Notes under the pieces: model-generated
The model's input: the letters and a program-made list of their open reading frames with translations, nothing else
Told to the model about the DNA's origin: nothing
Databases searched by the model: none
Made by a program: the position numbers and the translations under genes
Part shown: piece by piece, positions 23,921 to 51,746 of the stretch
Layout of the letters: each line of letters begins with the position of its first letter
Position numbering within the stretch: the stretch's first letter is position 1
Origin: Squalus acanthias
Taxonomy: Eukaryota
Reading direction: 5' to 3'
Assembly (NCBI GenBank): GCA_030390025.1
Contig: CM059431.1
Coordinates: 150,724,001 to 150,788,000 of the forward strand
DNA: 64,000 bases

Positions 23921-26900
23921 TACTGCCCCTCCGATAGTGCAGCTTTCCCATAGTACTACCCATCTGACAGTGCAGCACTCCCTTTGTACTGCCCCTCCGA
24001 CAGTGCAGCACTCCATCAGTACTGCCCCTCCAACAGTGCAGCGTTCCCTCAGTACTGCCACTCCGAAAGTGCAGCACTCCCTCAGCACTGCCCCTCCGAC
24101 AGTGCAGCACTTCCACAGTACAGCCCCTCTGACAGTGCAGCACTCCCTCAGTACTGCCCCTCCGACAGTGCAGCACTCCTTCAGTACTGCCCGTCCGACA
24201 GTACAGCACTCCCTCAGTACTGCCCCTCCAACAGTGCAGCACTCCCTCAGTACTGCCCCTCTGACAGTGCAGCGCTCCCTCAGTACTGCCCCTCCGACAG
24301 TGCAGCACTCCCTCTGTACTGCCCCTCCGACAGTGCAGCACTCCCTCTGTACTGCCCCTCCGACAGTGCAGCGCTCCCTCAGTACTGCCTCTCCGAAAAT
24401 GCTGCACTCCCTCAGTACTGCCCTTCCGATAGTGCAGATTTCCCTCAGTAGAACCCCTCTGAGAGTGCAGCACTCCCTCAGGACTGCCCCTCTGAAAGTG
24501 CAGCGCTACGTCAGTACTGCCCATCTGACAGTGCAGCACTCCCTCAGTACTGCCCCACCAACAGTGCAGCACTCATCATTACCGCCCATCTGACAGTGCA
24601 GCACTCCTTCAGTTCTGCCCCTCCGACAGTGCAGCGCTCCATCTGTACTGCCCGTTCGACACTACAGCACTCCCACAGTACTGCCCCTCCGACAGTGCGG
24701 CGCTCTCTCAGTACTGTCAATCCGACAGTAATGCGCTCCCTCAGTACAGCACCTCCGAGAGTGCAGCACTCCCTCAGTACTGCCCCTTCGGAATTGCTGC
24801 GCTCCCACAGTACTGCCCCTCCGACATTGCAGCACTCCCTCAGTACTGCCCCTGTGACAGTGTAGCACTGCTTCAGTACCAGCTCTTCCACAATGCAACA
24901 CCCATCAGTACAGCCCTACAGCAGTACAGCACACCCTCAGTACTGCCCCTCCAACAGTACGGTACTCCCTCAGTACAGCCCCTCCGAGAGTGCAGCACTC
25001 CCTCAGTACTGCCCCTCTGACAGTGCAGCGCCCCCTCAGTACTGTCCATCTGAAAGTGCAGCGATCCCTCAGTAGTGCCCACTCCGACAGTGCAGTCCGA
25101 CAGTGCACGCCTCCCTCAGCACTGCCCCTCCGACTGTGCAGCGCTCCCTCAGTACTGCCCCTGCGACAGTGCAGCAGTCCCTCAGTACTGCCCCTCCGAC
25201 AGTGCATTGTTGACTTAGTACTGCCCCTCCGACAGTGCTGTGCTCCCTGAGTACTGCCCTCCGACAGAGCAGCGCTCTCTCAGTACTGCCGCTGCAACAG
25301 TGCAGCACTCCCTCAGTACTGCTCCTCTGACAGTGCAGCACTCCCCCAGTACTGCCCCTCCGACAGTGCAGCACTCCCTCAGTATTGCCCCTCTGACAGT
25401 GCAGCACTCCTTCAGTACTGCCGCAAAGACAGTGCAGCACTCCCTCAGCACTGCCCCTCCGACAGTGCAGCTCTCCCTCAGTACTGCCCCTCCGACAGTG
25501 CAGCACTCCCTCAGTATTGCCCCTCTGACAGTGCAGCGCTGCCTCAGTACTGCCCATCTGACATTGTAGCACTCCCACAGTACTGCCCCTACGACGGTGC
25601 AGCGCTCACTCAGGACCGACACTCCGACTGTGCAGAACTCCCTCAGTACTGCCCCTCCGACTGTGCAGAACGCCCTCAGTACTGCCCCTCTAACAGTGCT
25701 GCGCTCCCTCAGTTCCGCCCCTCTGGCATTGCAGCACTCCCCCAGCTCTGCCTCTCCGGCAGTGCAGTGCTGCCTTTGTTCTGACCCTCCGACAGTGCTG
25801 GCCTCCCTCAATATTGCCCCTCTGATAGTGCAGCACTCCCTCAGTACTGGCCCTCCGTAAGTGCAGCACTCCCTCAGTACTGCCCCTCCGACAGTCCAGC
25901 GCTCTTTCAGTACTGACCCTCCTACAGTGCAGCTCTCCCTCAGTACTGCCCCTCTGACATTGCAGCGCTCCCTCAGTACAACCCCACTGATGGTGCAGTG
26001 CTTCCTCAGTACTGCCCACCCGACAGTGCAGCGCTCCCTCAGTACTGCCCCTCTGAAAGTGCTGCTCTCCCTCAGTACTACCCCTCCGACAGTGCAGCGC
26101 TCCCTCAGTACTGCCCGTCCAACACTGCAGCGCTCCCTCAGTACTGCTCCTCGGACAGTGCTGCACTCCCTCGGTACCGCACCTCCGACAGTGCAGTACT
26201 CCATCAGTACTGCCTCTCCCACAGTGCGGCGCTCCCTTTGTACTGACCCTCCGACACTGCAGGCATCCCAGAGTACTTCCCGTCCGACAGTGCAGCACTC
26301 CCTCAGTACTGCCCCTCCAACAGTGCAGCGCTCTCTCAGTACTGCCCCTCTGACAGTGCAGCATTATCTCAGTACTGCCCCTCTGACAGTGCAGAAATCC
26401 CTCAGTACTGCCCCTCTGACAGTGCAGCGCTTCCTCAGTACTGCCCACTCCGACAGTGCAGTTCTCCCTCAGTACTGCCCCTCCGACAGTGCAGCTCTCC
26501 GTCAGTACGGCCCCTCCGACAGTGCAGCACTCCCTCAGTATTGCCCCTCTGACAGTCCAGCACTCCTTCAGTACTGCCGCAAGGACAGTGCAGCACTCCC
26601 TCAGCACTGCCCCTCTGACAGTGCAGCACTCCCTCAGTACTGCCCCTCCGACAGTGCAGCACTCCCTCAGTACTGCCCCTCTGACATTGCAGCGCTCCCT
26701 CAGTACAACCCCACTGATGGTGTAGCACTCCCTCAGTACTGCCCACTCCGACGGGCAGTACTGAGGGAGCGCTGCACTGTCGGAGGGGTAGTACTGAGGG
26801 AGAGCTGCACTTTCAGAGTCGCAGTACTGAGGGAGCGCTGCACTGTCCGGTGGGCAGTACTGAGGGAGCACTGCACCATCAGTGGGGTTGTACTGAGGGA

Positions 26901-51450: not shown

Positions 51451-51746
51451 CGACGCAGTCTCTCAGGTGGACGCAAAAGGTCCCACGGCCGCTATTTTAA
51501 AGATGAGCAGGGGAATTATCCCTGGTGTCCTGGGCCCAATATTTATCCCTCAACCAACATCCCTAAAGGAACCGATAATCCGGCCAATATGTCGTTGCCT
51601 TCTGTGGGATCGTGCTGTGCTCAAATTGCAGCCGTGTTTCTACATTAGAATATTGACGACACTTCAAAAGTACTTCATTTGCTGCAAAGCACTTTGAGAT
51701 GTCCTGAGGTTGTGAAGGCTGCTCTATAAATACAATCCTTTCTTCC
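51215..51746 (+). mobile_element. 3' two-thirds of the DeuSINE-like SINE, continuous with the satellite
   Basis: The last unit continues as gaggtgccgtctttcggatgagaccataaaccgaggcccc. After the inverted block it continues as tctcaggtggacgc...cttcaaaagtacttcattt...ctataaatacaatcctttc, collinear with 7470-7786. Confidence 0.85.

What the first reader, a model, noticed from the sequence alone, without database searches (positions are those of the whole stretch)
23921..51746. A 27.5-kb satellite grown out of a hairpin inside one SINE
Seen: the 33-bp unit corresponds to the SINE internal segment (7444-7476 cagtgcagtaccaagagagcgctgcactgtcgg, reverse copy at 58273-58306). The right end of the array runs without a break into the downstream SINE body and tail (51241-51746). 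Each unit keeps an 8-bp hairpin GCAGTACT-gaggg-AGTGCTGC and the palindrome CAGTACTG. Inference: about 830-fold amplification of part of the conserved central (Deu-like) domain in situ, with the parent element still attached and its tRNA head lost. The array could act as heterochromatin, a protein-binding array or a structured RNA source.
Basis: partly seen in the sequence, partly recalled or inferred. Interest (0 to 1): 0.75.

Follow-up and report, generated by a model that had tools for sequence, protein, structure and literature searches.

The report
Satellite DNA derived from a SINE
A 27-kb block of about 830 copies of a 33-base piece of a short jumping element (SINE) still joins that element's rear half; it is a real but known kind of repeat, part of a family abundant in several related species, and its hairpin shows no sign of being kept for a function.

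Summary
The array is real: 23921-51243, 33-bp unit, 831 units, 88% identical to the canonical unit. Three details are wrong. The array is not one block: 23921-26752 is inverted, and 1,024 bp of it copy the start of the forward arm at 98.3%. The SINE's 3' half is interrupted after about 35 bp by five inverted units. Only 169 of 720 intact units keep all eight hairpin pairs, with no compensatory changes. The tandem form is also not private to this locus: the same unit, with the same altered junction, is in four runs from three related organisms, at 4-19 times the summed depth of the SINE body. Best reading: one locus of a genome-wide SINE-derived satellite, probably in a shark, grown by block duplications, rearranged by template switching and methylated, with no function shown. 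SINE-derived satellites that keep one SINE end and reach about 1,000 units are described in squamates. I found no report for cartilaginous fishes. New member of a known kind; interest 0.35.

The parts
23921..26752 (-). Inverted arm of the 33-bp satellite, 87 units
25096..26119 (-). Part of the inverted arm that copies 26750-27773: 17 substitutions and no indel in 1,024 bp (98.3%)
26120..26752 (-). Spacer between the two near-identical arms; its six-unit blocks match the forward arm at only 87-93%, so it has no recent twin
26753..51243 (+). Forward arm, 744 units, mean 88% to the canonical unit; holds duplicated blocks of 0.3-1.3 kb at 95-97% identity
51210..51246 (+). Last unit, in register with the single unit of ordinary SINE copies; ends in GTGC at 51243-51246, 33 bases after the position where the single-unit copy has GTGC (7446-7449)
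   Evidence: loose ends before 51219
51244..51280 (+). SINE body directly after the array
51281..51449 (-). About five inverted satellite units inserted in the SINE 3' half (90% to the canonical unit; 5 of 5 junctions GGGGC); absent from ordinary copies
   Evidence: joint 51279-51459 and loose ends behind 51279
51460..51747 (+). Rest of the SINE body and 3' tail, 71% identical to 7518-7784
7330..7785 (+). Reference single-unit SINE copy: A-box-like motif at 7345, B-box-like motif at 7394, unit at 7444-7476, tail shared with an L2-type LINE end
   Evidence: box patterns recalled
57960..58340 (-). Strongly decayed single-unit copy of the same SINE
23805..23920 (+). Left neighbour: degenerate copies of the 42-bp LINE-tail minisatellite, joined directly to the inverted arm; no SINE head

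Best explanation
One locus of a genome-wide SINE-derived satellite family, most likely in a shark (inferred). Step 1 (inferred): in a tRNA-headed, L2-tailed SINE a 33-bp segment bounded by a 4-bp direct repeat and overlapping a hairpin was duplicated by slippage or unequal exchange; a T-to-G change at the new junction marks the founder. Step 2 (shown as a pattern, mechanism inferred): that tandem form spread to very many places before the related organisms split, either inside retrotransposing SINE copies or by recombination with SINE copies. Step 3 (shown): here it grew to about 830 units by repeated duplication of multi-unit blocks. Step 4 (inferred): template switches made the inverted left arm, probably deleting the SINE head, and dropped five inverted units into the SINE 3' half. 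The array is CpG-methylated in the germ line (inferred from CpG decay) and drifts; the hairpin is inherited from the SINE and may promote instability, but is not maintained.
For: Unit in register with the SINE. Ordinary copies have SINE 5' sequence, not more units, before this position: loose ends before 51219 in 186, 314 and 182 contigs of X1, X6, X7, matching 7428-7450 (no such row shown for X5). Tandem continuation with the GGGGC junction behind 51417 in 371, 733, 282 and 701 contigs of the four runs. Summed depth of the unit bin 10-51 million, SINE body bin 1.5-4.4 million, unique flank 15-41 where covered. Duplicated blocks at 95-98%; 5 of 499 lags share variants above the best of 30 shuffles by a clear margin (0.37-0.45 vs 0.32). 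Inverted twin with a single-copy spacer and 3-bp microhomology. CpG decay: G-to-A at unit position 16 in 52 of 320 units after C but 9 of 354 after T; in distinct units the CpG at 26-27 shows transitions of 0.125 and 0.239 against 0.02-0.08 at non-CpG sites. No stem conservation or covariation. Precedent: PMC10702118.
Against: No whole genome was held, so no second array was seen with its flanks. Depth of contigs is not a copy number (tool warning) and only 55-97% of each run was read. No listed record spans the array-SINE junction at this locus. The best holder shares 0.41 of the words, so the runs may be from relatives rather than this species. The unit does fold better than shuffles (z about -2.7 to -3.0). 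Neutrality is inferred from lack of constraint on pairs only.
Confidence: 0.7

Rival explanations
1. One-off amplification in situ: this SINE copy duplicated its own segment and grew the array with no input from other loci.
For: Exact register at the right junction. The SINE tail is joined to the same unique flank in organism C (record 27, 51674-52079), so the host copy is old enough to have grown an array in place.
Against: The junction variant GGGGC is shared with tandem units in runs of three organisms, and unit depth is five to six orders of magnitude above the flank, far more than 831 units explain.
Confidence: 0.1
2. The inverted left arm, or part of the length, is an assembly artefact (fold-back chimeric read or mis-join inside the repeat).
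For: A near-perfect inverted twin around a short spacer is also the signature of fold-back reads (own knowledge). No read evidence covers 26752/26753.
Against: The twins differ by 17 substitutions and no indel in 1,024 bp; the outer part matches at 93-99% with rearranged order; a second inverted block sits in the SINE tail. This rival does not touch the SINE origin.
Confidence: 0.1
3. A functional array: multimerised binding sites or a source of structured RNA, kept because the parent SINE domain has regulatory activity.
For: Unit folds better than shuffles; shared by three organisms at high depth. Exaptation of related Deu-SINE copies as enhancers in mammals is recalled, not tested.
Against: 169 of 720 units keep the full stem; substitution rates 0.082 stem, 0.085 loop, 0.097 outside (p = 0.66); compensatory changes 12 observed against about 16 expected over eight pairs. 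No Rfam match at gathering score in the window.
Confidence: 0.07
4. Reverse direction: the SINE picked the 33-bp segment up from an older satellite.
For: The unit outnumbers the SINE body in summed depth.
Against: The most decayed SINE copy in the window already holds a single unit; single-unit copies have GTGC where the array has GGGC, and the array units are much less diverged (88% to consensus) than SINE copies are from each other (71-73%).
Confidence: 0.03

Closest known systems
SINE-derived satellites (sSat1-3) of squamate reptiles, Vassetzky, Kosushkin and Ryskov 2023, PMC10702118 (read: parts 1-4 of 5 of the text)
   Same: Tandem array of an internal SINE segment; one terminal unit runs on into the SINE up to its end; up to about 950-1,200 units per locus; one unit type shared across related species; 81-94% similarity.
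   Different: Other clade and other SINE family; unit 33 bp against about 67-290; two inverted blocks here; the authors say it is uncertain whether such satellites occur outside squamates.
SacSINE1-type Deu-SINEs of cartilaginous fishes, PMC5499810 (read: parts 1-2 of 6; supplements not available)
   Same: tRNA-type head, about 450 bp, L2-related 3' tail, very high copy number.
   Different: No sequence comparison with the published consensus was possible; the parts read mention no tandem amplification.
TE-derived minisatellites of the human genome (Ahmed and Liang 2012, PMC3389668; read: passages)
   Same: Tandem repeats start inside SINEs, some at short flanking direct repeats; hotspots can be spread further by transposition (LTR12).
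   Different: Mostly two or a few units and 5-20-bp direct repeats; here about 830 units and a 4-bp repeat.
FoSTeS / serial replication slippage (PMC2583991; read: passages)
   Same: Inverted segments joined at 2-5-bp microhomology, favoured by repeats and stem-loops.
   Different: A mechanism inferred from one assembled allele, not observed.

Membership tests
SINE-derived satellite (sSat) | Tandem unit shorter than, and homologous to, part of a SINE | tested here: met
   loose ends
SINE-derived satellite (sSat) | At least four middle monomers | tested here: met
   831 units
SINE-derived satellite (sSat) | A terminal unit extends into the SINE up to one terminus | tested here: met
   51244-51747, interrupted by five inverted units
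SINE-derived satellite (sSat) | Same unit at many loci of the genome | tested here: inconclusive
   Very high summed depth and shared junction in three organisms, but no second locus seen with flanks
SINE-derived satellite (sSat) | Tendency to subtelomeric position | not testable with these tools
   Window lies at least 45 Mb from the start of its piece; distance to the other end unknown
SacSINE1-type Deu-SINE (parent element) | tRNA-derived head with A and B boxes | tested here: inconclusive
   Box-like motifs at 7345 and 7394 in the reference copy (recalled patterns); no tRNA call by ARAGORN or Rfam; no head at the array locus
SacSINE1-type Deu-SINE (parent element) | 3' tail shared with an L2 LINE | tested here: inconclusive
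   Tail of 7330-7785 matches the end of a LINE-like remnant at 23180-23770 (score 50, best shuffle 42.5), the tail at the array locus does not pass (34 vs 43.5); the L2 label of the remnant is recalled from its translation
SacSINE1-type Deu-SINE (parent element) | Body aligns to the Deu-domain consensus | not testable with these tools
By position only, the unit (about 105-140 bases from the head start) would touch the left edge of SacSINE1 positions 124-258 that match zebrafish Deu sequence; an inference
Structured RNA under selection | Paired positions conserved or covarying | tested here: not met

The most novel reading that the evidence does not exclude
A 33-bp piece at the edge of an ancient vertebrate SINE domain became a satellite once, in an ancestor of several sharks, and then used the SINE family itself as vehicle or landing pad, so that a large share of the family's loci can sprout arrays that together outnumber the SINE. 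It would be a mobile satellite with a traceable single founder mutation and thousands of replicate loci, letting one measure how satellites are seeded, spread and grow.
Probability: 0.3. Interest if true: 0.6.

Novelty: new member of a known kind. Interest (0 to 1): 0.35.

Why it matters
It extends SINE-derived satellites from squamates to what is probably a cartilaginous fish, a question the squamate paper leaves open, and it may account for a sizeable part of the tandem DNA of these genomes. The diagnostic junction change gives a marker to tell single origin plus spread from repeated local birth. It does not point to a new function.

Tried and rejected
No whole genome was held, so arrays could not be mapped. 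Pattern scans found nothing usable: viral contigs 0, metagenomes 0 and 1, prokaryote genomes 0; the single hit L001 is a chance match (score 55, shuffles up to 72.5). No RNA holder listed; this says nothing on expression. No tRNA gene or Rfam family at gathering score in the window; the one weak Rfam hit at 7640-7696 (E 1.3) is chance. The five-sequence alignment was misled by the inserted block and a wrongly chosen range for the 58-kb copy and was replaced by pairwise tests. The array has stops in all six frames and is not coding. A fixed higher-order period was looked for and not found: neighbouring units are no more alike than average (0.80), only scattered long lags stand out. Earlier-findings look-ups by sequence, by one word set and by near place gave nothing.

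Full report
1. Observation. Tandem Repeats Finder reports a 33-bp array from 23921 to 51243. A wrap-around alignment cuts it into 831 units, end fragments included: 87 on the minus strand (23921-26752) and 744 on the plus strand (26753-51243). Mean identity to the canonical unit is 88%, and 495 of the 831 are distinct.

The last unit and the next 30 bases align in register with the single-unit SINE at 7330-7800 (score 52, best of 200 shuffles 35), and 51460-51747 aligns with its 3' part (score 265.5, best shuffle 62.5). Public contigs agree: in three of the four runs laid, 182-314 contigs carry ordinary SINE 5' sequence, like 7428-7450, in front of this unit (no such row is shown for X5). So ordinary copies have one unit at this place. 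The body does not run on unbroken: after about 35 bases the inverted block intervenes, and ordinary copies skip it (joint 51279-51459 in 4 of 4 runs; loose ends behind 51279 in 191-241 contigs per run). The copy at 57960-58340 is a decayed whole SINE (108 vs 63). No head is found in the flanks.

The hairpin claim fails as stated. Of 720 intact units, 169 keep all eight pairs, 453 keep at least seven and 405 keep the palindrome. Substitution rates outside CpG are 0.082 in the stem, 0.085 in the loop and 0.097 elsewhere (p = 0.66). Compensatory changes number 12 against about 16 expected by chance over the eight pairs. The canonical unit does fold better than shuffles (z -2.7), and the single-unit SINE copy forms a 9-bp stem that reaches four bases further out than the array's. 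The hairpin is thus inherited from the SINE and was cut short by the unit boundary.

2. What it is. The window is repeat-rich vertebrate DNA: 36,550 of 64,000 bases lie in the tandem arrays I masked, and 5 of 16 frames scanned hit LINE endonuclease or reverse transcriptase models. That it is a shark is an inference from recalled repeat types and from unchecked earlier notes on the same genome; organism names were coded. The parent SINE has A- and B-box-like motifs (recalled patterns) and a tail resembling the end of a LINE remnant at 23180-23770 (50 vs 42.5). This fits the SacSINE1 type described in PMC5499810, but I could not obtain a consensus to align, so 'Deu' stays untested.

The tandem form is not private to this locus. 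The single-unit SINE has GTGC at the start of the segment (7446-7449), and GTGC recurs 33 bases on (51243-51246). A plain duplication would give a GGTGC junction. The array has GGGGC at 433 of 743 forward junctions, 51 of 86 inverted ones and 5 of 5 in the tail block; GGTGC occurs at 22 of 743. The same GGGGC tandem continuation is the consensus of 282-733 contigs in each of four runs from three organisms. Summed depth over the unit bin is 13, 51, 10 and 34 million, against 3.2, 2.6, 1.5 and 4.4 million over the SINE body and 15-41 over unique flank where covered. The tool warns that this is no copy number. Twenty listed runs of eight studies hold part of the stretch, none half of its words; I laid 4 of the 23 listed. 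In organism C one contig joins the SINE tail to the same unique flank (51674-52079, 43 differences in about 410 bases), so the host insertion predates that split. No listed record spans the array-SINE junction of this locus.

3. How it most likely arose and works. Seeding (inferred): slippage or unequal exchange between the 4-bp direct repeats, helped by the hairpin; short flanking repeats are one published route from SINE to minisatellite (PMC3389668 passages). Spread (pattern shown, route open): inside retrotransposing copies or by recombination with SINE copies. Growth (shown): duplicated blocks of 0.3-1.3 kb at 95-97% identity, 1-10 kb apart, with no fixed higher-order period. Rearrangement (inferred): 25096-26119 is an inverted twin of 26750-27773 with 17 substitutions and no indel; the 633-bp spacer has no recent twin; the switch point shows 3 bases of microhomology. 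Two template switches, out of the left flank into the array's opposite strand and back, would give this layout and delete the SINE head in one event; a smaller pair of switches would give the tail block (mechanism as in PMC2583991 passages). State (inferred): methylated, since G-to-A at unit position 16 occurs in 52 of 320 units after C and 9 of 354 after T, and the other CpG shows the highest transition rates among distinct units. I put 0.7 on this neutral, heterochromatin-like reading. Rivals: purely local origin 0.1, artefact of the inverted arm 0.1, functional array 0.07, SINE derived from satellite 0.03.

4. Comparison. It works like, and meets three of five tested features of, the SINE-derived satellites of squamates (PMC10702118): arrays of part of a SINE, usually with one end running on to the SINE terminus, up to about 950-1,200 units, uniform across snakes. 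The other two features (many loci, subtelomeric position) were inconclusive or untestable. Differences: clade, SINE family, a shorter unit and inverted blocks. They agree with my reading but are not independent support.

5. Novelty. Nine literature searches (open-licence PubMed Central and bioRxiv only) gave no description of this satellite in cartilaginous fishes; passages of two shark genome papers discuss tandem repeats without naming it. Repeat databases and subscription papers were not searchable. It is a new member of a known kind. Its value is as a marker-bearing model of satellite birth and spread.

6. Verdict. Observation partly confirmed, interpretation partly supported, interest 0.35; boldest reading (a mobile satellite riding its SINE) probability 0.3, interest 0.6.

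Noticed in passing
window 10642-11469 (-): Open frame of 275 codons with a strong NAD:arginine ADP-ribosyltransferase domain (Pfam ART, E 1e-47): probably the main exon of a host ecto-ADP-ribosyltransferase gene, 12.5 kb from the array and abutting 21-bp and 32-bp tandem arrays (8738-10586).
   Followed up: partly
window 17058-17552, 20682-21731, 23805-23920: 42-bp minisatellites that begin at the 3' end of a LINE and repeat its terminal stem-loop; a non-tandem copy of that LINE end lies at 6125-6537 (91% identical). A second case of a retroposon hairpin seeding an array in the same window.
   Followed up: partly
window 23180-23770 (+): 3' remnant of a LINE (L2-like by recalled protein motifs) whose last 50 bases resemble the SINE tail; candidate partner LINE.
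   Followed up: partly
window 7071-7319 (-), 14823-14968 (+): Two further 5'-truncated copies of the same SINE, 71-83% identical to the others.
   Followed up: partly
window 14460-14730, 3184-3313, 12080-12169: A short young repeat (90-98% identical copies) with inverted ends and a 44-bp internal duplication, possibly a non-autonomous DNA transposon.
   Followed up: no
window 50620-51000: A variant unit with a 6-base duplication around the palindrome recurs several times near the right end of the array.
   Followed up: no
window 52504-63533: Long degenerate TC, CA and GA simple repeats make up much of the right flank; 57% of the window is tandem repeat.
   Followed up: no
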